A stretch of DNA of 37,149 nucleotides from IMG/VR virus record IMGVR_UViG_3300009702_000008, positions 1-37,149 of that record; one strand, written 5' to 3'. Shown in pieces: positions 124-37,149 of this stretch. The notes under the pieces are model-generated. The model did not search any database. It saw only the letters and a program-made list of their open reading frames with translations, and was not told the origin of the DNA. Source of the DNA: a virus. Within the stretch, counting starts at the first letter, position 1, and every line of letters starts with the position of its first letter. A program made the position numbers and the translations under genes.

Positions 124-261
124 GCCGCCTGTCCCATAAATGACGATCGCTTGACCGTTCGTGCATGACACGTTCGACACAGTGAACTTCTTGGGTTTCC
201 TTTCAACAGGTGTTGGTGCTTGCGCTGATTTTCGCGGCGGCGGTGGTGGTGCTGTTGGCAT
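1..261 (-). CDS. Sak4-like RecA-fold AAA ATPase, N-terminal segment (gene split by the linearisation point; continues at 36475-37026)
   Basis: ATG at 261-259 follows GGGAGA. Translation is MPTAPPPPPPRKSAQAPTPVERKPKKFTVSNVSCTNGQAIVIYGTGGVGKTSLASL..., with Walker A GTGGVGKT. 261+552 nt = 813 nt, in frame across the junction. Confidence 0.8.
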   Translation of the reverse strand, partial: MPTAPPPPPRKSAQAPTPVERKPKKFTVSNVSCTNGQAIVIYGTGGVGKTSLASLAPSPIFLNLDRDESKANIRQVNGVETFVDMRD

Positions 262-1282
262 CATCTGTTTCTCCCAATTCAGGATTCACATTTTGCACTC
301 GCTCGAACCCTTCGGGCAGTGCTTCATTTTCAACGTCAATTTGATTGACGCACAATGGCAAATATGCGCAGGGATAAGGAAATCTACACGATTGCGAATT
401 CTTGTAGTGCAGATTATTCCGTTCGGCTTGGCGAATCTGCTTCGCTATGTCCCACATTTCGTATCGCATTTCAGTAAGTTCTCGTTCGAATCTAACGACT
501 TCACGCCGCGCAAAATAGAATGATGGGCGTGTACCAATATCTTCACTCAATCTCTCAGAATACTCAACAAGAGATTCCCTTCGTCTGTCCTCGCCGCGAC
601 CGACAAGTTTGGGAGCAATAGACGGTTTGCGGATCACGTCATAAAGAACACCGCCAACGTCATAACCGAGTTCGCGGGCTGCAAGGATATAGCGACTGAT
701 CTGCTCATCGAGCGCGAGACGATCCCAATAATTGGAATCGGTCGTTATCGAATCACCAGTCGTCTTGTGTTCGAGAATTACCAGGCGGCCATCGTAGTGG
801 GCGACGGCATCAATCTTTCCTGCATTCCGATATGTTCGACTCGCCTTCTCCGTTTGCGGATTAACGATCGGCAAGTCGAATTGAATCTCGGATTCCAAAA
901 TCTCGATCGGCTCATCAGCCCAGCGGATTATATAGCCTTGCAAAAGTGCCTTGACCTTGACCAATTCAAGCAACAAGGATTCGATTCGCTCTTCAGAATC
1001 CGTCGCGTCGATCATTGCCCGATAGTTGTCGTCCAAAAACGACGTTGCACGGTCAATATCTTCAGTCGTTTTGTAAAGATGCAAGGCCTCGTGGAATGCG
1101 CCTCCGAATCGTAGAGCGGCCGACTGCTCGCGTCGCACGCCGCAAACGTAAGAATAGTAGTGTTTGCGAGGACAGAGTTTGAAGCACTGTGCTCGCGAGT
1201 TTGTGATAAGGTCTCGCCCATCGCCCTTGGATTCGATGGCTGTTTGCTCAATCGGTGCGAGTTCATCTTTGCGGTTTGACAT
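203..1282 (-). CDS. PD-(D/E)XK exonuclease, Cas4/RecB-like with putative Fe-S cysteines
   Basis: ORF 203..1333 trimmed to ATG 1282 (GAAAGGA 9 nt upstream). Motif ...GKIDAVAHYDGRLVILEHKTT (D...ExK). Cys near the N-terminus plus CRFPYPCAYLPLC near the C-terminus, as in Cas4/AddB nucleases. Confidence 0.75.
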   Translation of the reverse strand: MSNRKDELAPIEQTAIESKGDGRDLITNSRAQCFKLCPRKHYYSYVCGVRREQSAALRFGGAFHEALHLYKTTEDIDRATSFLDDNYRAMIDATDSEERIESLLLELVKVKALLQGYIIRWADEPIEILESEIQFDLPIVNPQTEKASRTYRNAGKIDAVAHYDGRLVILEHKTTGDSITTDSNYWDRLALDEQISRYILAARELGYDVGGVLYDVIRKPSIAPKLVGRGEDRRRESLVEYSERLSEDIGTRPSFYFARREVVRFERELTEMRYEMWDIAKQIRQAERNNLHYKNSQSCRFPYPCAYLPLCVNQIDVENEALPEGFERVQNVNPELGETDDANSTTTAAAKISASTNTC

Positions 1283-1556
1283 TCTCAAACATCCTTTCAT
1301 TGTCGAGCGACCAACCGCCCAGCGACGGGACATGCTTGACCAGTCCGGCGTCCTTCAACTCGGCGAGCATTACCATCGTGCGACGTTCTCCGACGTTGAT
1401 CCGTTTGGCGATTTCTTTGAGTCGCAATCCCGATTCCATCATCGTGGCTAAGAGCAAAATCAGCCTGTCCTTCGGCGGCGGTGGTTTGAACCGATCATCC
1501 ACGAGATTCGATTTATGACGCTTGTGAGTATTAGTCCGAGACCGCTTGTTGTGCAT
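1263..1556 (-). CDS. Small DNA-binding protein, winged-helix/HTH-like
   Basis: 97 aa. Basic N-terminus, then GLRLKEIAKRINVGERRTMVMLAELKDAGLV, which resembles a helix-turn-helix. Confidence 0.55.
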   Translation of the reverse strand: MHNKRSRTNTHKRHKSNLVDDRFKPPPPKDRLILLLATMMESGLRLKEIAKRINVGERRTMVMLAELKDAGLVKHVPSLGGWSLDNERMFENVKPQR

Positions 1557-3313: not shown

Positions 3314-4279
3314 CTAGCCCGTGAGAACCCGCTTGGACGTGATCACTGCCCCGCCCGTGGTGACGGTCCTTAGGCCTGCATCAATATCAAAGGGCGGGAA
3401 TTGATGTATCCGCCGTTGAAAGTTGGGCCTATAAATCGCGAGAGGATCATCGCTCAGAATCTTGAGTTCGCCATCCGAGAGATAGCGATTCCAAGTTGCG
3501 ACATGCGCAATCGAGAGCGAATCTGAATAGACTCCATCGCGCAACCCACCATAGAGAGCGTTGGTGCCGTGCGTCGCAGTGATGTGATTGCCAGATGTGG
3601 TTGTCGAAAGCGCAACGCCGTTGAGCCATAACTTGTGCGGAGTATTATCTATTGGCTCGCCCGAGGTTGCTGCAATGATATTGAGATTGTCGTTCGCAGC
3701 AAAGATCGAAACATCCTGATGTTGGAAGGCGCCGCCTGTGTTGAGCGCAGACAGAGTGCCATCATGTGCAACGAGCGCAATCGTTTGAAGTGTATTATCC
3801 AAATATAAGATGTGGCCTTTGAGTTTGCCCCCTGCCTTTGACGATCCCTTTTGATCCGTGCACCAGATGTAAGAAAAACCAGCAAGATTACTAGGGCTTA
3901 CAAACGCCTGAATTGTAAACGGTGGAGTCAATCTGACTTGATTGAAGTGATCGTTGGCAGATGTTCGTAATGCTCCTGCTGCGGAAGAATCGCCTGTATG
4001 TATCGCAGGTCCGATTGTTGTTTTGGCTTGTGTTAACGACCCACGTTCAAACAACCTACCTGGTGAATGCCCTGTGATCGAATAAGTGAATTGCCGAACC
4101 GCTCCAATGTTTGCCGCAAGCGTCAATGCCGAATGCATATATCGCAAAAACAGACACGGACTGAATGTAGTCATCAATCCACGCCATAATTGCGGATAGG
4201 CGGATTCCGAACTTGTTCTCGCTGCGTCTGACGCACGTAACACGCCAGGGAAAGAATTGCCGACCCCACTTGTAGCCAT
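3314..4279 (-). CDS. LamG/concanavalin-A-like jelly-roll protein, last gene of the structural operon
   Basis: 321 aa. C-terminal ...SLSIAHVATWNRYLSDGELKIL resembles the conserved end of LamG-type domains. Start overlaps the upstream stop. Confidence 0.6.
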   Translation of the reverse strand: MATSGVGNSFPGVLRASDAARTSSESAYPQLWRGLMTTFSPCLFLRYMHSALTLAANIGAVRQFTYSITGHSPGRLFERGSLTQAKTTIGPAIHTGDSSAAGALRTSANDHFNQVRLTPPFTIQAFVSPSNLAGFSYIWCTDQKGSSKAGGKLKGHILYLDNTLQTIALVAHDGTLSALNTGGAFQHQDVSIFAANDNLNIIAATSGEPIDNTPHKLWLNGVALSTTTSGNHITATHGTNALYGGLRDGVYSDSLSIAHVATWNRYLSDGELKILSDDPLAIYRPNFQRRIHQFPPFDIDAGLRTVTTGGAVITSKRVLTG

Positions 4280-4776
4280 TATTGCTTCTTGTAAGGTAGA
4301 GGCGTCAGATAAAACGCATGGTCCGCCGCCGTCGCAGACAGCCCATCTGCCGTTCCGTTTGCGATCACCGCCTGCACTTGTTTGGTCGGGATAAAAACTT
4401 CACCGAATGCTGTAAAAGATGCAGTTGTCGATGCTTCATTTACAACAAGAGAACCAATCCATTTGGCGCCCGCGAAAGTGCTTTCGAGAGTCTCTGTATG
4501 ATCAGTCTGGGATATATTGAAATCGTTTGTGCCGTCCGACAGAGCAAGATAAATGTCGATTACCTCATCAAGCACAGGCGTTGTGGCGAACTTTGTCTTG
4601 AGTCCCCACTGATATAGCCCCGGTCCAGCACCATCGCCTAAGATTGCTAGATCCGCCGGTGCACTATAGCGGATCGAACCCGACGCCAACGAAGTCAAAG
4701 TCAAAGCTACGTCAGTCGGCGTAGAGTCAAACGTGATCGTCGTTCCCTGATTGATATATAGATCACCAACAGCCAT
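4279..4776 (-). CDS. Hypothetical virion-associated protein (165 aa)
   Basis: Tightly coupled ORF in the fibre module. Thr/Ser/Ala-rich, beta-rich composition. Confidence 0.6.
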   Translation of the reverse strand: MAVGDLYINQGTTITFDSTPTDVALTLTSLASGSIRYSAPADLAILGDGAGPGLYQWGLKTKFATTPVLDEVIDIYLALSDGTNDFNISQTDHTETLESTFAGAKWIGSLVVNEASTTASFTAFGEVFIPTKQVQAVIANGTADGLSATAADHAFYLTPLPYKKQ

Positions 4777-5069
4777 TATACTTCCCCAATTCCTACAATC
4801 TTTCGAGACGACAAGCAGTCATCAGAGCCGCGTTCGAAATCTCTACATTCTTTCGGTCGATATTCATAATGCAAACAGCGCCTATTTCCCGAATCAAACC
4901 ATTCGCATGGTCGATAGGTTTCGCTGCAATCCTCCATTTGTTTCACCTGTATCGCCAAACGGATCGGCAAGGATCGTAATTCGTCATCGTCAAACGGAGG
5001 TTTACCAACCAACATACAACATGCTGCGCATTCCCCGCATTCTTCGTCAATGATCGGCAAATCAATCAA
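4776..5069 (-). CDS. YkgJ/UPF0153-like Cys-cluster (Zn/Fe-binding) protein
   Basis: Motif CGECAACC (CxxCxxCC) plus later Cys residues. The first in-frame ATG lies after the motif, so TTG at 5069 or 5060 is proposed as the start. The start is uncertain. Confidence 0.5.
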   Translation of the reverse strand: MIDLPIIDEECGECAACCMLVGKPPFDDDELRSLPIRLAIQVKQMEDCSETYRPCEWFDSGNRRCLHYEYRPKECRDFERGSDDCLSSRKIVGIGEV

Positions 5070-5562
5070 TGGTATATTCCAACGCCACCCAAACCTTTGT
5101 TGGCGCAGACGCAATCGCCGACGCCGAATAATGCAACCACGTACCAGCCGAAATAGCTGGCGAAGTAAAAGACGTATCATTCAATCCCGCTGCGGTCGCC
5201 TGTAAATCCACCGCCTCAACATCCGTGCCCGCAACATCGGGCGTCAATTGACCGCGTTTTTCGATATTGAAATCCACCGTGCCAACGTCTGTTATGCCGA
5301 TGATCCGTTTCAGGGTTGCAGCATGCGGGACATAAACGAGAGGGAACGAATCGGTGGCCGCTGGTGACTCAATGTAGATAAAATGGCCTGGTTGCGTCGG
5401 AATGATTGTTCGCAATTGTGCGCCGGTCAATTCGGAAGCGGGCTTGTTCGCACCCGACAAATTGCCCAACACGCGTGCATTGCTGACCATGCCGACATTG
5501 GTGGCCATGACGATCGCGTCAAATGCTGCGCCTTTTGTAATCTCTCCTACTACACTCGGCAT
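5062..5562 (-). CDS. Hypothetical tail-fibre-module protein (166 aa)
   Basis: ORF coupled to its neighbours. No domain recognised. Confidence 0.6.
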   Translation of the reverse strand: MPSVVGEITKGAAFDAIVMATNVGMVSNARVLGNLSGANKPASELTGAQLRTIIPTQPGHFIYIESPAATDSFPLVYVPHAATLKRIIGITDVGTVDFNIEKRGQLTPDVAGTDVEAVDLQATAAGLNDTSFTSPAISAGTWLHYSASAIASAPTKVWVALEYTID

Positions 5563-6824
5563 TAGATTGTCACCAACATTGTTGTCGGGTCGGTAAAGCC
5601 CGGATTCTTGGAAACGTAAACTCGATAATCTTCTTGGTATCCTGCATCGTTCGTCACCGCCAACGCGGTATTATCGACGTTGAAATCACCAAGCGATTCG
5701 AATCCGCCGATGATAATCGAAGTCAAGGCACCGAGACGCGCTGGATATGCAATGTAAGTATACTCGCTTGCGGTCGCGTTGACCGTCATCGACCGGCTGC
5801 TCATAGAATTAGATGCGACTTGCCCTGGTTGCGTCGCGGTGTTGTTCTCAACGTCCGATTCCGTATAACCCGACGCCTTCGCAAGTTCGCCCCAAAAGAT
5901 GTAGTTTTGAGCGGTTGAAGTCGTCAGTAGGTCGAAGTCATTCGATCCATTCGCAAGATCGGCCAGCCGAGATGTGATCGCCTTGAATGCTTCGGTAAAT
6001 CCCGCCGAATTAGTAACCGTCGTGAGATTGATTGTTTGCACAGTCGGTGCCAGAGTTGTGGCACTCGCCGCGAACGATGCCGTCACCGAACCGAATCCGC
6101 TATTCATTCTGACTTGTGCGACGCTGGACAATCGAGATGCATGCGCAAATGTCACTTTGTCGCCCGCAGCTCCGGTCGGAATGTTGAAGATGCTTTGAAA
6201 TCTCGACTCATTCGGCCCCGCCACCTCGGTCAATGCTTCGATGTTCGCTTGTGTCTGCGCACCAATCCCGTTGGCGTTCGTGCCATATCGCATCGTGTTT
6301 GAAAAGCTGACCGAATCTTGTTTGGTGCTGGAGTCCGCCGACTGACTCAATGTAAACGTGATCGTGCCGGTTGCCGACGAAGGATAATTGACTGCCTCGG
6401 TGTTCGTTTCCGGCCCCGTCGTCGGTGTCATCGAAAGATTCGATCCCCACGCCACAGATGATCCGGTCATGGCCACTTGTGCCGTCATGCCGACCGGTTC
6501 ATTGGAATACGATGCCGTGAATGTGATCGCGCTGATCGCCTGCCAGACGCCAGATCCGATAAGCTGAAACGTATCGCTGATGCCGTCGCTGAAGCTATCA
6601 ATCGAGAACGTAAACTCGGTCGTATCGCCCGCCGTTCCTGGCACCCAGTTCGAGCCGTTCCATTTTAGAACTTTATTCAATACAGGCGGCACCGTCGTCG
6701 TGTCAGCGTCCGTCAGATCGTCTACTGCAATAGGCCCTCCGCCGCCTCCCGCGGGAGCGTTCGTTTGCGTGACGGCTGATTTGCCCGCCGTCTGTTGCAA
6801 TGAAGTGACTCGGCTTTTAGCCAT
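5562..6824 (-). CDS. Tail-fibre-like protein (420 aa)
   Basis: The N-terminal ...DDLTDADTTTVPPVLNKVLKWNGSNWVP motif resembles common fibre N-termini. The rest is Thr/Ser/Ala/Gly-rich. Confidence 0.6.
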   Translation of the reverse strand: MAKSRVTSLQQTAGKSAVTQTNAPAGGGGGPIAVDDLTDADTTTVPPVLNKVLKWNGSNWVPGTAGDTTEFTFSIDSFSDGISDTFQLIGSGVWQAISAITFTASYSNEPVGMTAQVAMTGSSVAWGSNLSMTPTTGPETNTEAVNYPSSATGTITFTLSQSADSSTKQDSVSFSNTMRYGTNANGIGAQTQANIEALTEVAGPNESRFQSIFNIPTGAAGDKVTFAHASRLSSVAQVRMNSGFGSVTASFAASATTLAPTVQTINLTTVTNSAGFTEAFKAITSRLADLANGSNDFDLLTTSTAQNYIFWGELAKASGYTESDVENNTATQPGQVASNSMSSRSMTVNATASEYTYIAYPARLGALTSIIIGGFESLGDFNVDNTALAVTNDAGYQEDYRVYVSKNPGFTDPTTMLVTI

Positions 6825-26403: not shown

Positions 26404-27303
26404 TCAATCAAACAACCCGCCTGATTCGGACGTGTACCAGATCACCTCGGTCCGCGGGACTTTGGCCATTGCCGATCCCGTCCCTTGCAGTCCTGATTCT
26501 CTGCCACATACCGCCGCATGACATGCCGTTTTGATTTCTCGCCGTTCATATCGTTGATCGAGACGATTGTAAAGCTCATTCGAGTATCCGCTTATCATCG
26601 CCTTGCCTTTAATCGTCAACAACAAGTCAACAAGCTCTTCGTGATGGTCGTCGTCGCATTCATGGACGTATTCGCCCGATTTTCTAGTCGATGCGACATA
26701 GGGAGGATCGAGGTAGAACACCGTGTCCGGCGAATCCCAATACCTGATAACTTCGAGGGCGTCTCGATTATCGACCTGAACGCGCTTGAATCGCTCGATG
26801 ATCGATGGGAGCAATGAGACGCGGCGGATCCATCTTGCAACGTTCCTTGCCATTCCACGGGATTCAACGAAAGCGCGACTCCAATCGCCTGGTGTTTTAC
26901 AAACATCCATCGAAACGCCCTGATTCTGCACGACGAAAAACGCCCACGCCCGATTCACGTCATCGCCGATCTTCCCATGCATGATATCAAGAGCTTTGGC
27001 AAACTCAGCGCGAGAATAAAGCGTTAGCTCCAACCGGCTGATCAGTGCCTCGGATTTCTCAGCGTTTTGCAATACTCGGCACAAGTTGATCAGCCGATCA
27101 TCGAGGTCGTTATACACTTCAACCGGTCGCGGTTTGATCCAAAACAACATGGACGCCGCACCGCCGTAGGGTTCGCAATAGACGCGACCGTGCGGAAGAT
27201 ATTTGGCGATCGTCCTGCACAGATTGCCTTTGCCGCCGAACCATTGAACTAATCCAGGCAACTTGTTTTTGACATGGCCGTTTGTTTTTTCTTTCGTGTG
27301 CAT
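26404..27303 (-). CDS. DNA adenine methyltransferase, Dam/D12 class
   Basis: ORF 26404..27600 trimmed to ATG 27303. Motifs LVQWFGGKG, EPYGGAAS and DPPY. Confidence 0.85.
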   Translation of the reverse strand: MHTKEKTNGHVKNKLPGLVQWFGGKGNLCRTIAKYLPHGRVYCEPYGGAASMLFWIKPRPVEVYNDLDDRLINLCRVLQNAEKSEALISRLELTLYSRAEFAKALDIMHGKIGDDVNRAWAFFVVQNQGVSMDVCKTPGDWSRAFVESRGMARNVARWIRRVSLLPSIIERFKRVQVDNRDALEVIRYWDSPDTVFYLDPPYVASTRKSGEYVHECDDDHHEELVDLLLTIKGKAMISGYSNELYNRLDQRYERREIKTACHAAVCGRESGLQGTGSAMAKVPRTEVIWYTSESGGLFD

Positions 27304-27344
27304 TTCAGTTTGAACACTTCGGCAATTCCGAATAGTTGCTTCAT

Positions 27345-27414
27345 TGCTCGCCGACGGAATCGAACCGCCGTTCGGGCGCGGAGATGAGGCACGCCTTACT
27401 AATCCATTGCGAGC
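27345..27414 (-). other. tRNA-like element, non-canonical (no D-arm)
   Basis: GCTCGC-AATGGATTAGTAA-GGCGTG-CCTCATCTC-CGCGCC-CGAAC-GGCGG-TTCGATT-CCGTC-G-GCGAGC-A. Perfect T-arm, 6-bp acceptor-like helix, 6-bp stem with a 9-nt loop. Confidence 0.35.
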
Positions 27415-27445
27415 TACTAACGCCGCCCAAAGACGGCATCGCGAT

Positions 27446-27498
27446 CCCCTGCGATAAGCCCTCGACCCCCTGCGATAACGGCATAACCCCTGCGATAA
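27446..27498 (-). repeat. Three direct copies of CCCCTGCGATAA (sense strand TTATCGCAGGGG) at 20-21-bp spacing
   Basis: Copies at 27446-27457, 27467-27478 and 27487-27498, upstream of the tRNA-like element. Confidence 0.85.
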
Positions 27499-27596
27499 GA
27501 AGGGGGCGGCGACCCCACCGGAAGAGGGAGCGAGGCCGCCGCTGGGAGAAACGACAATCGGTCCCCACCGCGTCAATTCGCCCCGGGTAACACTCA

Positions 27597-27812
27597 TCAA
27601 TTCTTATCCTTAGCCTTGCCATCCGGCATCAGCCGATCGTCAATCGTGATCGTCGCAACGCCCTTTTCGTCAGCCGTTTTTGCGGCACGCGAGAAAAACG
27701 TAATCTCCGTACCCCATCGCAGACCGGCTTCTGTTGAATTGGATACGGTCGTCGTACAACCGAGCAGACATCCGCCGATCGCTAACAAGACAAGATTTCC
27801 CAAGAGCCTCAC
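27597..27812 (-). CDS. Small lipoprotein (71-aa precursor)
   Basis: GTG 27812 lies 6 nt after GGAGG. MRLLGNLVLLAIGGCLLGC-TTTV has a signal peptide and a lipobox. Confidence 0.6.
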   Translation of the reverse strand: MRLLGNLVLLAIGGCLLGCTTTVSNSTEAGLRWGTEITFFSRAAKTADEKGVATITIDDRLMPDGKAKDKN

Positions 27813-28005: not shown

Positions 28006-28737
28006 TTACCGAATCGACTGACTGAGGCGGGCGCACGAGTCAACTTCAGCCATCATCCAAGACCTTGCAATCATTTTAACAACCTGTGGTACTACGGCGT
28101 TTCCGAGCCCTCTAAGTCGGTCCATCCTGCGGGGTACCCCATAACCCATTCGATCCACGTCGGGTTCGGGACTCCAGACCCTCCATAGATGCTCTTGAGT
28201 TGGTTGCAAATACTCTCGCCTGCTCGTGTGGTATACCCTTTCCAATCTCTGGCGCATGGGCGTAGCCATGATCCAAACTCTCCGAGCTTTTCGCATCGGT
28301 GACCTGACAGCATCAGCACCCACCACGATCGGCCAGCAGGTGTAACCGATTTCTTCCAGCGAACCGAGTACGGCGTCCGCGCCTCGACTTCGGAGAGCAG
28401 GTACGTTCTCAATGAGCAGCCGAACGGGTCTACATGCCCGAATAAGCCGCAACCAATGCCACCACAGACCAGATCGTTTTCCGTTAATACCTGCGCCCCT
28501 TCCTGCGATGCTAATATCGGTACATGGAAACCCGCCCGTCCAGATTGATCGATCCCATCCTGCCCATTGGAGTCCGAGCCCGAATCCGCCGATCCCCGCG
28601 AAAAAGTGGCATTGTTCGTATCCCGCAACTTCATCCGGCGTGACCTCTTTGATACACTTTTCAAGTATGTGGTCATTCGGAAAGTTCTTTCGCAGAACCT
28701 TGCAACACCACGGATTGTTATCCGTTTGCAGATTCAA
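28006..28737 (-). CDS. Compact DNA (cytosine-5) methyltransferase with unusual N-terminal motif order
   Basis: FFAGIGGFGLG (motif I), GGFPCTDIS (IV), ENV (VI), RKARRVW (VIII), RLRGLGNAVVPQ (X). TTG start lies directly after an in-frame TGA. Confidence 0.75.
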   Translation of the reverse strand: MNLQTDNNPWCCKVLRKNFPNDHILEKCIKEVTPDEVAGYEQCHFFAGIGGFGLGLQWAGWDRSIWTGGFPCTDISIAGRGAGINGKRSGLWWHWLRLIRACRPVRLLIENVPALRSRGADAVLGSLEEIGYTCWPIVVGADAVRSPMRKARRVWIMATPMRQRLERVYHTSRREYLQPTQEHLWRVWSPEPDVDRMGYGVPRRMDRLRGLGNAVVPQVVKMIARSWMMAEVDSCARLSQSIR

Positions 28738-33537: not shown

Positions 33538-33864
33538 TCACATGGTTCCGGCGATGAAGTCGTGCAGATCGTCAACCGACCTGACCACAACAGCAGTTCC
33601 GCCGGAAGCCTTAACGGACTCCATCCACGCAAGCTGATCCGCAGTAGGTTTGTTGCGTCCTGTTTTGCATTCGACGCTCAGAAACCGCCCGCCGGCCAAC
33701 ACGGCGAAGATGTCGCCCGATCCCCTAGCGCCGAAGCGGACGAACCGCCTGCGTCCTTTATAGGTGCCCCCTACCGCCCCCGTATTGTTTCGCCACGCGA
33801 GGATGCCCCTAACGCGGAGGTAGTCCAAGCATGCCTTAACTAGCTTTGTTTCGCTGCCTGCCAT
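33538..33864 (-). CDS. VRR-NUC domain nuclease
   Basis: 108 aa. ...GSGDIFAVLAGGRFLSVECKTGRNKPTADQLAW... (D...ExK...Q..W). Confidence 0.8.
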   Translation of the reverse strand: MAGSETKLVKACLDYLRVRGILAWRNNTGAVGGTYKGRRRFVRFGARGSGDIFAVLAGGRFLSVECKTGRNKPTADQLAWMESVKASGGTAVVVRSVDDLHDFIAGTM

Positions 33865-33867
33865 TCA

Positions 33868-34265
33868 GTGCCGTGCCTTGCCCGGCCTCGTCACGCCCAT
33901 CCTCGCCTGCGATGCCAATCCATGTCATTCCTCACCTAGCCGGGCCAAGCCAGTCCCCGCCTGTCCGATCCAAGCCACGCCTTGTCGTTCCTCGCCTGCG
34001 ATGCCACGCCTGGCCTCGCCCGTCCGCGCCAGTCCGATCCTCGCCTGCGATGCAGTGCCAACCCTTGTCATTCCTTGCCGATCCGTGCCCTGCCTGCGAT
34101 GCCGAGCCGATCCATGCCTGGCCGAACCTTGCCGTGCCGCGCCAATCCGCGCCCTTCCAATCCACGCCTTTCCCTGCCTGCGATGCCGAGCCAATCCGTG
34201 CCTTGCCACGCCTCGCCTGCGACGCCAAGCCGATCCTCGCCAATCCTCGCATCGCCGCGCCTGCC
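33868..34265. repeat. Array A: degenerate 5-nt-periodic NN(G/T)CC units punctuated by TGCGATGCC
   Basis: CC recurs every 5 nt. 9-mers start at 33908, 33997, 34046, 34095, 34179 and 34218, and all gaps are 4 mod 5. Confidence 0.9.
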
Positions 34266-34721
34266 TTATCCCGCCTTCTTTTTGCGCTTGCGAATAATTA
34301 CCTCTAACGTCGCAAATAACGGAGCCAGCTCGGCCAACCGTTCATATTTCCTTTTGAAAATAAGCAAGTCCTCAATCGCGTCATCGAGCAAACACTGTGT
34401 AAGTTGCGCGTCACTCAACACGCCAGCGATATTGCGGTATCCGCCGCTCTTAATCTTTCGATCTTTGCGCAACGAAACATAGACTTGCGTCGGGGTATCG
34501 ATCGGCGATTCCTTATAGACGACTTTGACGATCAACTTGCGTGCCTGCCACAAGCGATATTCGTGACCGGCCTTTTGGTCGTCCCACTCAAATTGTTCGT
34601 GCAACGCGGTCTTAGGGTTTTCAGCGAAACTGACGACATCCTCGGGTCGCAACAAGCCTTTGTGTTTTTTTTCTATGACCTTCAGTTCGCTTTCGATTGT
34701 TCTTTCCTTCAGTTTGACCAT
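34266..34721 (-). CDS. 151-aa protein bracketed by the two arrays (FEWDD...RLWQARKLI motif, basic C-terminus)
   Basis: ATG 34721 after GAAAGGGAAAACA. Normal coding composition. Function unknown. Confidence 0.7.
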   Translation of the reverse strand: MVKLKERTIESELKVIEKKHKGLLRPEDVVSFAENPKTALHEQFEWDDQKAGHEYRLWQARKLIVKVVYKESPIDTPTQVYVSLRKDRKIKSGGYRNIAGVLSDAQLTQCLLDDAIEDLLIFKRKYERLAELAPLFATLEVIIRKRKKKAG

Positions 34722-34746
34722 TGTTTTCCCTTTCAGTTTGTGTTAG

Positions 34747-35089
34747 GTTTCCGTTCCTGCAGTGCCGTGCCACGCCCCACCCAGCCCAACCTCGCCTGCG
34801 ATGCCAATCCTTGCCTCGCCGCGCCTTTCCAATCCACGCCTTTCCTTGCCTGCGATGCCGTGCCTTGCCCATCCGTAGCGATCCCCGCCCTTCCACGCCT
34901 GCGATGCCATGCCGGTCCCGTCCATTCCCCGCCACGCCATTCCACGCCTCGCCTGCGATGCCGTGCCGGTCCCCGCCCAGCCAGTCCTATCCTTGCCGCT
35001 CCGCGCCTGCGACGCCAAGCCAATCCAGTCCGATCCTCGCCAATCCAAGCCTGTCCGATCCTGCGGTGCATGCGAAGCCATGCGGAACC
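34747..35089. repeat. Array B: paralogue of array A with a near-regular 54-bp higher-order unit
   Basis: 9-mers at 34758 (degenerate), 34797, 34851, 34900, 34954, 35008 and 35062 (degenerate). Gaps are 39, 54, 49, 54, 54, 54. Confidence 0.9.
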
Positions 35090-35135
35090 GAGCACAGCAT
35101 AGCTGCGCTCGGCCCCACAAAAACAAAAACCACGA

Positions 35136-35819
35136 CTAGGACTTTAGACGAAACGTACCCCAACCCATGCCGCAACTCTTCTTACTGTCCGGCCTGCCCT
35201 CGCCAATACCAACCTGCATCCCAACGCGCGAAAGCAAATTAGTAATGTCCTCAAACGTAAACATGTCAGCGTCAAACGTGACCGACACAACAGCCTCCCA
35301 ACCCTCAGGCCACATCGGCCTGGGTCGAATGTCAACAACGCCAGTTTCGTTCCTGACATACATCTCGAAATAATCAGGTTTGCCCTTCGTGATCTTCACC
35401 AGGGGAGTTCCATCATCCGAGTCAAAGCCATTCGCTTCGACAAAGACGGCGAGTTTAGCTCGCGTCATCGTAAACCCTACGATACGGCACGCTGAAATCA
35501 TGGCATTGCGAAACGACGGAGCAGGAATGCCGTGCCAACCTTCACGCGAAACGTGCATCGCATCCTCATAGCACTTTGCAAAATCTTTCGGCTCTCGTTT
35601 CTTTTTTCCCCTTGCTGTAGACCCCGCCTCCTGCACCGCTTTCATCTGTTCGCGAGCCTTTGCCGAGAACTTATTTTGCACATATGGAGCGGTACCGATT
35701 ATGGTAAACTCCGCCGTTCGCAGATTCGGCGGTAAAATCTGCACGTTGCGAACGCCTTTTTGTTTCGCCTTCCCGTTGTTTTTCTTTGCATCTTCCAATT
35801 CTGCAATTCGATTCGTCAT
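35136..35819 (-). CDS. Conserved-looking hypothetical protein of the recombination module (227 aa)
   Basis: ORF trimmed to ATG 35819 (GGGAGA 6 nt upstream). C-terminal ...GMQVGIGEGRPDSKKSCGMGWGTFRL. No family named with confidence. Confidence 0.7.
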   Translation of the reverse strand: MTNRIAELEDAKKNNGKAKQKGVRNVQILPPNLRTAEFTIIGTAPYVQNKFSAKAREQMKAVQEAGSTARGKKKREPKDFAKCYEDAMHVSREGWHGIPAPSFRNAMISACRIVGFTMTRAKLAVFVEANGFDSDDGTPLVKITKGKPDYFEMYVRNETGVVDIRPRPMWPEGWEAVVSVTFDADMFTFEDITNLLSRVGMQVGIGEGRPDSKKSCGMGWGTFRLKS

Positions 35820-35965
35820 CTTGTTCTCCCGTAAAAGAGTTGTTCGCAAGTTACACACTTGCGTGTTCATCACAAAACCAATCTTTCCCGACCTGATTCT
35901 CGGCAGGCTTCATGCACCAACGGTCATCATCGCGCCTGCCGCTGCAACGCTTGCCGCTAAGACGA

Positions 35966-36475
35966 TCAAAACGGTGTATCGTCCTTGTTTCGTGCAATGT
36001 TTCCGGCGATGGCGCGAAAGGTGGCACCATGCGCAGCTCCCAGCTTATCAATGTCCTGTTTTTCAAGATTTGAAAACGTGCTTTTCCCGCCGCCATCACG
36101 CGGATTGATCCATTGAACAACGAGGCTAGTCTTTCCTTCGTAGCTCTGCTCTTCAATCGTGATCGAGCATTCTGGCCACGACCGATCGGGATCGTCGAAA
36201 GCCTTAAGATCGCCATCCCATCCGAACACTTCGCAAAGGTTTTCGATCGCCCGTTCGTTTGGCGTTCCATCCTTCTTAATGATCCATGATTTGCCGAAAA
36301 TCGTCTGCCGATATTCTCCCCACGGAATCATCGAACGAGATTCATTATCCCAGTATTCCTTGAGCAAAAACAGAAACGAAACGCAAACGGCCTTTGAGTT
36401 TTCAGCCTTCCTGATTCCCGTTCCGAGCACTTCTGCAATGAATACACCCGGCCTATCAGCTTCAACGTGTGGCAT
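35966..36475 (-). CDS. DUF669-like putative ssDNA-binding protein
   Basis: 169 aa, directly downstream of the Sak4-like ATPase with a TAATG overlap. Assignment rests on context and weak resemblance only. Confidence 0.55.
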   Translation of the reverse strand: MPHVEADRPGVFIAEVLGTGIRKAENSKAVCVSFLFLLKEYWDNESRSMIPWGEYRQTIFGKSWIIKKDGTPNERAIENLCEVFGWDGDLKAFDDPDRSWPECSITIEEQSYEGKTSLVVQWINPRDGGGKSTFSNLEKQDIDKLGAAHGATFRAIAGNIARNKDDTPF

Positions 36476-37149
36476 TATTGTTTGCCTCCCAAAATGAGTT
36501 TCCAGATTTCATCCGATCCTTGCTCGTATTGAATCGTCTTGTTAACACTCCGAGACTTCGCCCAAAAAATCGGCAACTCCTGCGTATAAATCGTTCGTGT
36601 TCCGGCACCGACTGCCTTGCCGTCTTTGACCGCCTTGTCGTAATTGATAAACAGCATGTGGTCGCACCAATTCTTTACGGCGTCTCTGATTCTTCCGGTT
36701 TTCGGTGGCTGATAGAGATCGGGCTCATATCTAAGGTAATCGTCACCTTCAGGATTCGGAGCCATCGAAGTCGTCGAATGACAAACCAACACGACGTTTC
36801 GGCCAGCCCTTTTGTGACGATCCAAGTCAGCCAACAAGAGCCGAAACGTCTCCAAGACGAATTGATAACCCTTCCCATATCCATAACCTTCGATGGACGA
36901 AACACGATGTCCCTTCTCATGCGGAACTGTTTCGAGAGTATAGTTCTCCGCAAGCTGTTGCGCCTGCGTTGCCGTGTCAACAACAACGGTTTTGCAATCT
37001 TTCCAGATGCCTTCGTCCCGTAGTGCATCGCGCATATCTACAAACGTCTCTACTCCGTTGACCTGGCGTATATTCGCCTTCGATTCATCTCTATCGAGAT
37101 TCAAAAAGATCGGCGACGGCGCGAGCGATGCAAGCGAAGTCTTACCGAC
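36475..37149 (-). CDS. Sak4-like RecA-fold AAA ATPase, C-terminal segment (N-terminus at 1-261 across the junction)
   Basis: The frame runs off the window end at ...VGKTSLASLAPSPIFLNLDRDES.... Walker-B-like TVVVDTA. The full gene is about 270 aa. Confidence 0.85.
   Translation of the reverse strand, partial: VGKTSLASLAPSPIFLNLDRDESKANIRQVNGVETFVDMRDALRDEGIWKDCKTVVVDTATQAQQLAENYTLETVPHEKGHRVSSIEGYGYGKGYQFVLETFRLLLADLDRHKRAGRNVVLVCHSTTSMAPNPEGDDYLRYEPDLYQPPKTGRIRDAVKNWCDHMLFINYDKAVKDGKAVGAGTRTIYTQELPIFWAKSRSVNKTIQYEQGSDEIWKLILGGKQ
37027..37149. repeat. Terminal overlap, copy 2 (identical to 1-123)
   Basis: See copy 1. Confidence 0.95.

What the first reader, a model, noticed from the sequence alone, without database searches (positions are those of the whole stretch)
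33868..35089. Array-gene-array locus: two paralogous 5-nt-periodic repeat arrays bracketing a 151-aa ORF
On the plus strand, CC recurs every fifth base for about 400 bp (33868-34265) and about 340 bp (34747-35089), for example gtgcc gtgcc ttgcc cggcc ... aagcc agtcc ccgcc tgtcc gatcc aagcc acgcc. The units are degenerate NN(G/T)CC, which is GG(C/A)NN on the sense (minus) strand. A conserved 9-mer TGCGATGCC, usually within CTCGCCTGCGATGCC, interrupts the register every 39-89 bp and shifts the CC phase by one each time. The arrays share their start (CAGTGCCGTGCC), an internal block (AATCCACGCCTTTCC(C/T)TGCCTGCGATGCC) and their end (GCCTGCGACGCCAAGCC...GATCCTCGCCAATCC). They are therefore diverged direct duplicates in which the pentamer register was kept while the sequence drifted, which suggests selection on the period itself. 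A 5-nt period does not fit codon constraint. The pattern is also not CRISPR, not a simple tandem repeat, and not an iteron set of any type I know. The locus sits inside the replication and recombination module, between the VRR-NUC gene and a 227-aa unknown.
Basis: partly seen in the sequence, partly recalled or inferred. Interest (0 to 1): 0.92.

Follow-up and report, generated by a model that had tools for sequence, protein, structure and literature searches.

The report
Phage VIPR guide-RNA arrays
The two 5-base-periodic arrays are real and are most likely guide-RNA arrays of a phage VIPR system, a CRISPR-like RNA-guided DNA-binding system first described in two 2026 preprints, so this is a new example of a recently described kind rather than a new kind.

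Summary
CC recurs at lag 5 in 56 of 78 and 53 of 73 cases, against 14.8±3.4 in dinucleotide shuffles, and lag 3 is depleted. Read on the minus strand, which is the sense strand of all neighbouring genes, the arrays are GG[C/A]NN pentamers. They are cut into 13 segments of 7-17 units by a conserved GGC(A/G)U-CGCA boundary, whose 4-nt unit shifts the register by -1. A scan of viral contigs with a bare (GGNNN)x10 pattern returned at least 120 loci. Of these, 73 encode a homologue of the 245/227-aa 'unknown' gene next to the array and on the same strand. That protein belongs to phrog_4652, the family of the Escherichia phage SUSP1 Vipr protein, and its model matches Cas7/Csm3 RAMPs. This matches the published VIPR system: one small RAMP protomer binds each GGY of a vrRNA, and the NN dinucleotides pair with DNA while skipping every third base. 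The window has vipr, array B, an accessory gene (151 aa, phrog_15946) and array A, in the 'staggered array' form. Local differences are A instead of U at repeat position 3 in 36% of units and a CGCA rather than GGCA boundary. Twelve exact-match scans found no target. Expression, processing and binding are untested.

The parts
35136..35873 (-). vipr gene, encoding a small RAMP (Cas7-like) protein. It is 245 aa from the GTG start. The called product P0001 is 227 aa, which I take to start at the internal ATG (inferred 35136-35819; its start coordinate was not checked).
   Evidence: - It matches phrog_4652 at E 3e-13 over 188 of 194 profile positions. The SUSP1-type Vipr of phage Alf5 matches the same PHROG at E 2e-96.
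- The AF2 model has pLDDT 80.3. Its top Foldseek PDB hits are type III Csm complex chains, type VII Cas7 and Cas7-11, at E 1e-5 and prob 1.0.
- A profile of the family hits PDB 36pp 'SUSP1 Vipr protein' at E 0.058. hhalign gives E 5e-5 over the thumb-to-G-loop region.
- The database holds 7359 homologues.
- Homologues lie next to pentamer arrays in 73 of 120 loci found by the DNA pattern alone.
35062..35135 (-). Leader between the vipr stop codon and the first guide. It holds a U-rich tract, an imperfect hairpin (CCGAGCGCAGC-UAU-GCUGUGCUCGG) and a first CGCA|GG boundary.
   Evidence: Read directly from the sequence. Any function is inferred only.
34747..35061 (-). Array B, holding six candidate vrRNAs. 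B1 is 35061-35012, B2 35007-34958, B3 34953-34904, B4 34899-34855, B5 34850-34801 and B6 34796-34762. They have 7-10 GG[C/A]NN units. B1-B5 are each followed by CGCA and B6 by UGCA. The array ends at the ribosome-binding site of the 151-aa gene.
   Evidence: The parsing is.
34266..34721 (-). Accessory gene and candidate vap, 151 aa, phrog_15946.
   Evidence: - It matches phrog_15946 at E 3.5e-22.
- Homologues accompany vipr in 24 of the 73 pattern-found vipr loci, in L001-L003 and in cyanophage Cy-LDV1.
- Its presence goes with 4-nt-punctuated (staggered) arrays, p = 7e-7.
- The AF2 model has pLDDT 92, is mostly helical and has no PDB neighbour at E < 2.
- It is not homologous to SUSP1-type vap1, which is phrog_5926.
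33865..34265 (-). Array A, holding seven candidate vrRNAs. A1 is 34261-34222, A2 34217-34183, A3 34178-34099, A4 34094-34055, A5 34045-34001, A6 33996-33912 and A7 33907-33868. They have 7-17 units. The array starts with a GGCA|GG boundary directly after the stop codon of the 151-aa gene. It ends with a GGCA|GG that overlaps the VRR-NUC start codon.
   Evidence: The parsing is. The RNA fold is no more stable than shuffles, z = +0.66, so there is no sign of a structured tail.
33902..35016 (-). Eleven copies of the boundary or handle GGC(A/G)U-CGCA-GGCGAG (CTCGCCTGCGATGCC on the + strand). They start at 33902, 33991, 34040, 34089, 34173, 34212, 34791, 34845, 34894, 34948 and 35002. The 4-nt unit CGCA produces the -1 register shift.
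   Evidence: Eleven copies against 0.17 expected. In related loci the equivalent unit is GGCA, in 165 of about 205 4-nt units, with modal spacing of 49 and 54 nt.

Best explanation
The locus is a VIPR (Viral Interference Programmable Repeat) system carried by a tailed phage.

Layout. The minus-strand operon reads vipr (RAMP protein), array B, accessory gene, array A.

Proposed mechanism, inferred by homology with phage SUSP1:
1. The arrays are transcribed with the operon and cut at the GGC(A/G)U-CGCA|GG boundaries into about 13 short vrRNAs.
2. Vipr protomers polymerise along each vrRNA, one per pentamer.
3. Each protomer flips out and holds the invariant GG plus the third base, and exposes the two variable bases.
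4. The exposed NN dinucleotides together pair with a double-stranded DNA target while skipping every third target base, so the target reads (xNN)n.
5. Binding represses the target, most likely a gene of a competing phage, prophage or satellite.

This explains the 5-nt period: it is the footprint of one protein subunit on the RNA. GG is fixed and NN is free because NN carries the target information. The -1 register shifts are the junctions of a 'staggered' array, in which one vrRNA ends where the next begins.

Shown here: the anatomy, the family membership of the protein, and the conserved linkage of gene and array.

Inferred from the published SUSP1 work: transcription, processing, filament formation, the 1-nt-skip pairing rule and repression.
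For: 1. The periodic anatomy fits the published vrRNA description of 9-16 YNNGG repeats with conserved GGY and hypervariable NN. The window has 13 segments of 7-17 GGMNN units, with GG near-invariant and NN near-random.
2. A search of viral contigs by DNA pattern alone gave at least 120 loci. Seventy-three encode a homologue of the window's 245-aa protein. The arrays are on the same strand as that gene in all but four cases, and commonly start within about 40 nt of its stop codon or just after the accessory gene.
3. The protein shares phrog_4652 with the SUSP1-type Vipr. Its model matches Cas7-family RAMPs. Its family profile's best PDB sequence hit is 'SUSP1 Vipr protein' 36pp.
4. Three residues that contact RNA in SUSP1 have counterparts that are invariant or nearly so in this family. 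R138 (thumb) aligns with R185, D177 with E225 and R179 with R227.
5. The -1 register junctions match the published 'staggered arrays', whose vrRNAs overlap by 1 nt.
6. The same layout of vipr, array, phrog_15946 gene, array occurs in cyanophage Cy-LDV1. In L001 and L126 the arrays instead flank the vipr and accessory-gene pair.
7. The array RNA is not more structured than shuffles, as expected for a protein-coated single strand.
8. No guide matches the phage's own genome above background. The paper reports the same for its systems.
9. The contig is a tailed phage, with terminase, portal, major head and tape-measure genes.
Against: - There are no expression, processing or binding data for this locus.
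- No target was found. Exact 1-nt-skip patterns from six guides gave no hit in viral, metagenome or genome collections. These scans tolerate no mismatch, whereas the paper accepts 80% NN match or better.
- Position 3 is A in 36% of units. In SUSP1 the Y3 pocket is said to exclude purines, and GGY>GGA was among the substitutions tested. The preprint says perturbing the GGY motifs abolished silencing.
- W178 of SUSP1, which stacks on G2, aligns with a glycine here.
- Direct sequence similarity to SUSP1 Vipr is weak and confined to the C-terminal third. The link rests on the shared PHROG and on the fold.
- The accessory protein is unrelated to the one tested accessory protein, vap1.
- Which of the seven published VIPR types this is could not be determined, because the figures and data files are not held.
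Confidence: 0.84

Rival explanations
1. This is a VIPR-family module with a different rule or role from SUSP1. It might use another skip length, target RNA, or regulate the phage's own or the host's genes rather than competitors. The GGA-tolerant repeat and the different accessory protein would reflect that difference.
For: - Position 3 is A in 36% of units, the highest among the vipr-encoding loci tabulated.
- The G-loop tryptophan is replaced by glycine.
- The accessory protein is phrog_15946 rather than vap1 and has no known fold.
- No 1-nt-skip target was found.
- The paper itself reports alternative repeat consensuses and seven types.
Against: - No self-match was found under any skip rule from 0 to 3.
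- The conserved thumb arginine and the G-loop acidic and arginine residues suggest the same way of holding the RNA.
- The failure to find targets is weak evidence, because the scans were exact-match only.
Confidence: 0.1
2. The arrays act as double-stranded DNA. They would be iterons, an origin or a centromere-like site bound by the 151-aa protein or the replication initiator. The array-gene-array layout would then resemble P1 incC-repA-incA.
For: - The arrays lie inside the replication and recombination module, upstream of a replication initiator and a DnaC-like loader.
- They flank a gene.
Against: - Across the vipr-encoding viral loci the arrays follow the vipr gene, not replication genes. 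All but four lie on the vipr strand, which a symmetric DNA site would not require.
- Only the GG plus position 3 are conserved, while the rest varies freely. That is the opposite of an iteron.
- In Cy-LDV1 the module sits between a block of hypothetical early genes and an excisionase.
- The 151-aa model has no recognisable DNA-binding fold.
Confidence: 0.03
3. The strong G-skew of the sense strand promotes co-transcriptional R-loops or G-quadruplexes, which prime replication or recombination. This would be analogous to immunoglobulin switch regions, which also consist of pentamer repeats.
For: - The sense-strand composition is about 45% G and 23% C.
- The arrays sit between recombination genes (Sak4-like protein, VRR-NUC).
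Against: - It does not explain the strict GG phase, the pyrimidine/C-A preference at position 3, the regular 4-nt junctions every 39-89 nt, or the tight linkage to a RAMP gene.
- The SUSP1 arrays have the same pattern at much lower G+C and are experimentally guide RNAs.
Confidence: 0.02
4. The arrays encode repetitive proteins. A 5-nt DNA repeat reads as a 5-residue repeat, G-x-A-[WRG]-x, in any frame.
For: - Long ORFs cover the arrays in several frames.
- Their translations find 'homologues' in other loci by tblastn.
Against: - The open frames follow from the composition, since NN[G/T]CC almost never makes a stop codon.
- The matches occur on both strands and in several frames.
- Lag-3 periodicity is depleted.
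- The common 49- and 54-nt segment lengths are not multiples of 3, so every junction changes the frame.
- No ORF spans a whole array on the sense strand.
Confidence: 0.01

Closest known systems
VIPR system of Escherichia phage SUSP1 and other Felixounavirus phages (type II VIPR; bioRxiv 10.64898/2026.04.26.720920 and 10.64898/2026.04.26.720927; PDB 36pp)
   Same: - Both have a small RAMP protein of phrog_4652.
- The arrays are GGN-NN pentamers on the sense strand, in the intergenic regions around vipr and a roughly 150-aa accessory gene.
- GG is conserved and NN is hypervariable.
- Both are phage-encoded.
- The thumb arginine and the G-loop acidic and arginine residues are conserved.
   Different: - SUSP1-type vrRNAs are separate units of about 100 nt. 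In the Alf5 locus each repeat tract is flanked by conserved non-repeat sequence. The preprint describes a structured pseudoknot 3' tail.
- Here the guides abut directly, with only a GGC(A/G)U-CGCA junction and no predicted structure.
- The repeat here is GG[C/A] with 36% A, not GGY.
- The accessory gene is unrelated: phrog_15946 against phrog_5926.
- There are about 13 guides here. The preprint reports 4 for SUSP1.
- Sequence identity between the two Vipr proteins is detectable only in the C-terminal third.
'Staggered' vrRNA arrays of other VIPR types (fig. S18 of the first preprint)
   Same: - Consecutive vrRNAs have no spacer.
- One vrRNA ends where the next starts, with a 1-nt overlap. This is what a 4-nt unit with a -1 register shift looks like in DNA.
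- Relatives found here use GGCA|GG every 39-64 nt, the same spacing as in the window.
   Different: - The window's junction is CGCA preceded by an invariant GGC(A/G)U, not GGCA. Similar (C/T)GCA junctions occur in L128.
- The figure itself could not be read, so this correspondence rests on its legend only.
Class 1 CRISPR-Cas backbone (Cas7/Csm3 filament on crRNA)
   Same: - Both use a RAMP fold with a G-loop and a thumb.
- One subunit binds per fixed number of guide nucleotides, and the thumb breaks the guide-target pairing periodically.
- The best structural matches of the model are Csm3-type and Cas7-type chains.
   Different: - The period is 5 nt, with 3 nt sequestered and 2 nt pairing. In CRISPR the period is 6 nt, with 5 pairing.
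- The guide is itself a repeat, with the information interleaved in it.
- There is no repeat-spacer array and no cas1 or cas2. No padloc or NCBIfam Cas model is matched.
TRAP-trp leader RNA (Bacillus): 11 (G/U)AG triplets separated by 2-3 nt (from my own knowledge, not tested here)
   Same: A multi-subunit protein reads a triplet at roughly 5-nt spacing on single-stranded RNA. I considered this before the VIPR match was found.
   Different: - TRAP is a closed ring with a fixed number of sites and carries no guide information.
- Here the segments vary from 7 to 17 units, and the partner protein is a RAMP.

Membership tests
VIPR system | A Vipr protein: a small, single-RRM RAMP with G-loop and thumb, homologous to the published Vipr proteins. 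| tested here: met
   - The window protein and the SUSP1-type Vipr both match phrog_4652.
- The top Foldseek hits are Cas7-family RAMPs at E 1e-5.
- The profile's best PDB sequence hit is 36pp, SUSP1 Vipr, at a weak E 0.058.
- hhalign gives E 5e-5 over the thumb-to-G-loop region, with counterparts of R138, D177 and R179 conserved.
- UniRef names a 67%-identical relative 'CRISPR-associated protein'.
VIPR system | vrRNA repeat tracts: tandem pentanucleotides (YNNGG, i.e. GGY/NN) with 9-16 units per vrRNA (at least 4 in the paper's search), next to vipr and on its strand. | tested here: met
   - There are 13 tracts of 7-17 units on the vipr strand. They start 75 nt after the vipr stop codon and directly after the accessory gene.
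- One deviation: position 3 is C 59%, A 36%, T 4%, which is GGM rather than GGY. The paper allows 'a related consensus' such as NNNGG.
VIPR system | GG(Y) is conserved while NN is hypervariable. | tested here: met
   - Positions 4 and 5 use all four bases, and 16 of 16 dinucleotides occur.
- Segments are 60-73% identical, which is the scaffold level.
- Related loci keep the scaffold with unrelated NN.
VIPR system | A defined vrRNA end: a conserved 3' tail, a ribozyme, or a staggered 1-nt-overlap junction. | tested here: inconclusive
   - A conserved GGC(A/G)U-CGCA|GG junction with a -1 register shift is present 11 times.
- It matches the GGCA|GG junctions of relatives and the legend describing staggered arrays.
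- No structured tail is predicted and there is no Rfam hit.
- The actual RNA ends are unknown without RNA-seq.
VIPR system | An adjacent accessory gene (vap1-6). | tested here: inconclusive
   - A conserved accessory gene (phrog_15946) accompanies vipr in 24 of 73 pattern-found loci and in Cy-LDV1.
- It is not vap1, which is phrog_5926.
- Whether it is one of vap2-6 cannot be checked, because the paper's data files are not held.
- Its fold has no PDB neighbour.
VIPR system | vrRNAs are expressed and co-purify with Vipr, and the ribonucleoprotein binds dsDNA by the 1-nt-skip rule. | not testable with these tools
   This needs small-RNA sequencing, a pull-down, and EMSA or reporter assays.
VIPR system | Natural targets are in competing mobile elements at 80% NN match or better, with no self-targets. 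| tested here: inconclusive
   - There is no self-match above background under any skip rule.
- Twelve exact-match scans with six guides (8-11 units each) found nothing in the viral, metagenome or genome collections.
- A mismatch-tolerant search, the paper's nhmmer method, could not be run on those collections.
CRISPR-Cas | A repeat-spacer array with identical repeats of 23 nt or more, together with cas genes (adaptation module or a multi-subunit effector). | tested here: not met
   - There is no such repeat family.
- Only one RAMP gene is present.
- There are no padloc or NCBIfam Cas hits.

The most novel reading that the evidence does not exclude
The clade that includes this window may use a relaxed or altered repeat code and its own maturation route. 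The clade combines Vipr, a phrog_15946 accessory protein and tail-less staggered arrays. Adenine would be accepted at repeat position 3, which SUSP1 Vipr is reported to exclude. The G2-stacking tryptophan is absent. vrRNAs would be released from inside a polycistronic replication-module transcript at GGC(A/G)U-CGCA junctions, possibly with help from the fold-orphan accessory protein. If so, this is a mechanistically distinct VIPR subtype and not just another copy.
Probability: 0.3. Interest if true: 0.55.

Novelty: new member of a known kind. Interest (0 to 1): 0.42.

Why it matters
VIPR is a newly described way of recognising DNA with RNA. The guide is a repeat, and only two of every five bases carry the address. 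It has been proposed as older than CRISPR.

This window adds a clean environmental example with 13 guides in the compact 'staggered' layout. The scan done here shows that the signature is easy to find from DNA alone.

The local peculiarities could help define how much the repeat code can vary and how tail-less guides are matured:
- GGA units.
- A CGCA junction.
- An accessory protein with no known fold.

There is also a practical point. Gene callers can place spurious ORFs over these arrays, and their translations find each other across loci. This can create false protein families.

Tried and rejected
- **Whole-array Fourier power at period 5.** It was not above shuffles because of the register slips. 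I used lag autocorrelation instead.
- **Rfam.** At gathering thresholds there was no hit in the window. Fourteen related loci gave only an unrelated int-alpA RNA in L006. No hammerhead was detected in the loci tested.
- **Family libraries.** Pfam, NCBIfam and PADLOC gave nothing for the 245-aa, 151-aa and 169-aa proteins.
- **Direct phmmer of either protein against PDB sequences.** Nothing useful.
- **Ideas held before the literature hit and then dropped.**
  - A TRAP-like ring reading about 10-11 units per segment. The segment lengths vary from 7 to 17 units.
  - A Chi-like array of the 9-mer.
  - Small-terminase wrapping.
  - An R-loop origin.
  - A centromere made of short direct repeats.
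  - None of these explains the link to a RAMP gene.
- **Target prediction by the published 1-nt-skip rule.**
  - No self-target was found in the window.
  - A local test of skip rules 0-3, using 279 guides against about 1.1 Mb of fetched loci, was uninformative.
  - Twelve exact-pattern scans of the viral, metagenome and genome collections with guides A3, A6, B2 and B3 and the second halves of A3 and A6 all returned zero.
- **Assigning the system to one of the seven published VIPR types.** Not possible, because no supplementary data are held.
- **Fold search of the 151-aa model.** No PDB neighbour. In BFVD it matched only two uncharacterised phage proteins.
Full report
**1.
- On the + strand CC recurs at lag 5 in 56 of 78 (array A) and 53 of 73 (array B) occurrences. 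Dinucleotide-preserving shuffles give 14.8±3.4, with a maximum of 27. Lag 3 is depleted, at 1 and 4 against about 15.
- No other 150-nt stretch of the 37-kb window has more than 7 such pairs. The arrays reach 28.
- Global Fourier power at period 5 is not significant.
- The 15-mer CTCGCCTGCGATGCC occurs 11 times with at most 2 mismatches, against 0.17 expected. All copies are in one orientation and inside the arrays.

**2. Anatomy on the sense strand.**
- All neighbouring genes are on the minus strand. Read there, the arrays are GG[C/A]NN pentamers.
- A conserved GGC(A/G)U-CGCA boundary cuts them into 13 segments, six in array B and seven in array A. The next segment starts with GG directly after the boundary.
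- CGCA is a 4-nt unit, and that causes the -1 shift.
- Segments have 7-17 units. Position 3 is C 59%, A 36%, T 4%. Positions 4-5 use all 16 dinucleotides.
- The arrays fill the intergenic spaces completely. Array B runs from a short leader after the 245-aa gene to the ribosome-binding site of the 151-aa gene. Array A runs from the stop codon of the 151-aa gene to the VRR-NUC start codon.
- The array RNA is no more stable than shuffled sequence, z = +0.66. Rfam has no match.

**3. The arrays are not a protein and not whole-array duplicates.**
- ORFs cover the arrays in several frames because NN[G/T]CC rarely forms a stop codon.
- Their translations match other loci on both strands and in several frames.
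- Period 3 is absent, and the 49/54-nt segments break any reading frame.
- Segment-to-segment identity is 60-73%, which is what the fixed scaffold gives.
- Shared runs of NN are within a shuffle null.
- Two short blocks look like real local duplications of guides: the start of B5 and A3, and the end of B1 and A1.

**4. The decisive comparative result.**
- The 151-aa protein found three viral relatives. Two of them had GGNNN arrays beside the gene.
- A locally built profile showed that 73 of these 120 encode a homologue of the window's 245-aa protein. The arrays lie on the same strand as that gene in all but four cases. They commonly start within about 40 nt of its stop codon or just after an accessory gene. 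Twenty-four loci also encode a homologue of the 151-aa protein.

**5. What that protein is.**
- It has 7359 homologues at E ≤ 1e-5. None has a Pfam domain. UniRef labels one of them 'CRISPR-associated protein'.
- The AlphaFold model (pLDDT 80) is matched best by chains of type III Csm complexes, type VII Cas7 and Cas7-11.
- A profile of the family gives 'SUSP1 Vipr protein' (PDB 36pp) as its best PDB sequence hit. The hit is weak, at E 0.058.
- The Felixounavirus (SUSP1-type) gene that carries that PDB sequence belongs to phrog_4652 at E 2e-96. The window protein matches the same family at E 3e-13 over its full length.
- In the aligned region, SUSP1 residues reported to hold the GG have conserved counterparts. 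R138 aligns with R185, D177 with E225 and R179 with R227. W178 aligns with a glycine.

**6. The literature.**
- Two 2026 preprints describe exactly this kind of system, VIPR. The vrRNAs consist of 9-16 YNNGG repeats. One Vipr (RAMP) protomer binds per repeat and sequesters GGY. The NN dinucleotides pair with dsDNA while skipping every third base.
- In the preprints' experiments, binding represses transcription. Their natural targets are competing phages, prophages and satellites.
- Seven types exist. They include 'staggered arrays' whose vrRNAs overlap by 1 nt, ribozyme-interspersed arrays and alternative repeat consensuses.
- The window's -1 junctions correspond to the staggered form. In relatives the junction is GGCA|GG (165 of about 205 4-nt units), spaced mostly 49 or 54 nt as in the window. 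This form is associated with the phrog_15946 accessory gene, p = 7e-7.

**7. How this locus differs from the characterised SUSP1 system.**
- The Alf5 locus, which is SUSP1-type, shows separate vrRNAs with conserved non-repeat sequence after each repeat tract, GGY units and a phrog_5926 accessory gene. The preprint describes that 3' sequence as a pseudoknot tail.
- The window has abutting guides without a structured tail and about 13 guides.
- It uses GG[C/A], with the highest A fraction among the vipr-encoding loci tabulated.
- Its junction is CGCA. Similar junctions occur in L128.
- Its accessory protein is unrelated, and the high-confidence model (pLDDT 92) has no PDB neighbour.
- Cyanophage Cy-LDV1 (BK059895), whose Vipr is 65% identical, has the same layout of vipr, array, phrog_15946 gene and array. 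The arrays are not annotated there.
- In L001 and in the closest metagenomic relative L126, the arrays instead flank the vipr and accessory-gene pair. In L126 a DnaC/IstB-like gene follows.

**8. Targets.**
- Under the published rule, each guide defines a pattern NNxNNx… (listed).
- None matches the phage's own genome above background under any skip rule. The paper likewise reports no self-targeting.
- Twelve exact-pattern scans of the viral, metagenome and genome collections returned nothing. These scans allow no mismatch, so the question stays open.

**9. Context and verdict.**
- The contig is a tailed phage, with terminase, portal, major head, tape-measure and two methyltransferase genes.
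- The cassette sits between a Sak4-like recombinase block and the VRR-NUC, initiator and DnaC-like genes.
- The feature is real and non-coding, and its period is under selection.
- It is a VIPR locus of the staggered-array kind. That makes it a new member of a kind described in 2026, with modest variant features that may merit follow-up.
- Membership rests on the tested anatomy, protein family, fold and conserved linkage.
- The mechanism is carried over from SUSP1 and has not been shown for this locus.

Noticed in passing
L007:640-1197 (minus strand of the locus): This is a different array form. Tracts of 11-16 GGYNN units alternate with a conserved element of about 60 nt. The element contains a hairpin, GGCGG-CUAAAAA-CCGCC, and is repeated four times next to a vipr homologue. 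It looks like tail-bearing vrRNAs. Rfam at gathering thresholds finds no family there, and no hammerhead.
   Followed up: partly
L124 (Cyanophage Cy-LDV1, BK059895.1): 4615-4815 and 5405-5580: A published cyanophage genome carries two unannotated GGCNN arrays with GGCA junctions, after g34 (vipr homologue, 65% identical) and after g33 (phrog_15946). Both genes are annotated as 'hypothetical protein'.
   Followed up: yes
phages collection: Vipr homologues of about 34% identity occur in 27 Mycobacterium phage and 5 Gordonia phage records, for example Quico, Florinda and Donkeykong. All are annotated as hypothetical. Their flanks were not inspected for arrays.
   Followed up: no
window 33846-35242, + and - strands: Six or more spurious ORFs of 94-232 aa lie over the arrays. 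Their translations find 'homologues' in up to 26 other loci by tblastn. Such arrays can seed false protein families in databases.
   Followed up: partly
window 203-1333 (-) and 36475-37104 (-): An exonuclease gene lies at one end of the contig and a Sak4-like annealase at the other, both on the minus strand. If the contig is a circularly permuted complete genome, the two would form one recombination module across the junction. I did not test this.
   Followed up: no
window 26404-27600 (-) and 28006-28737 (-): Two DNA methyltransferase genes (phrog_56 and phrog_363) lie between the packaging and replication modules.
   Followed up: no
L023:1897-2833: This is the longest array seen, 937 nt with 24 GGCA junctions and about 25 guides. 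It comes from a 95.8-kb viral contig. No vipr gene lies in the 6.3 kb fetched.
   Followed up: no
L012, L062, L065, L070, L086, L116, L118: Some hits to the pentamer pattern are not VIPR-like. Position 3 is mostly G (G-runs) and no vipr homologue is present. The bare GGNNN pattern therefore gives some false positives.
   Followed up: partly
L006:1635-1704 (-): There is a match to the Rfam family int-alpA RNA (RF02996, 36.8 bits against a gathering score of 35.8) about 1.7 kb upstream of a vipr gene.
   Followed up: no
L128 (NCBI GCA_031377185.1, JANMES010000007.1, 162.9-kb contig): 4168-4330: A vipr, accessory gene and array cassette lies in a long contig of a genome assembly, so it is probably a prophage. 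The junctions are (C/T)GCA|GG as in the window. A hairpin followed by a U-run, which looks like a terminator, comes directly after the array. The organism was not identified.
   Followed up: partly
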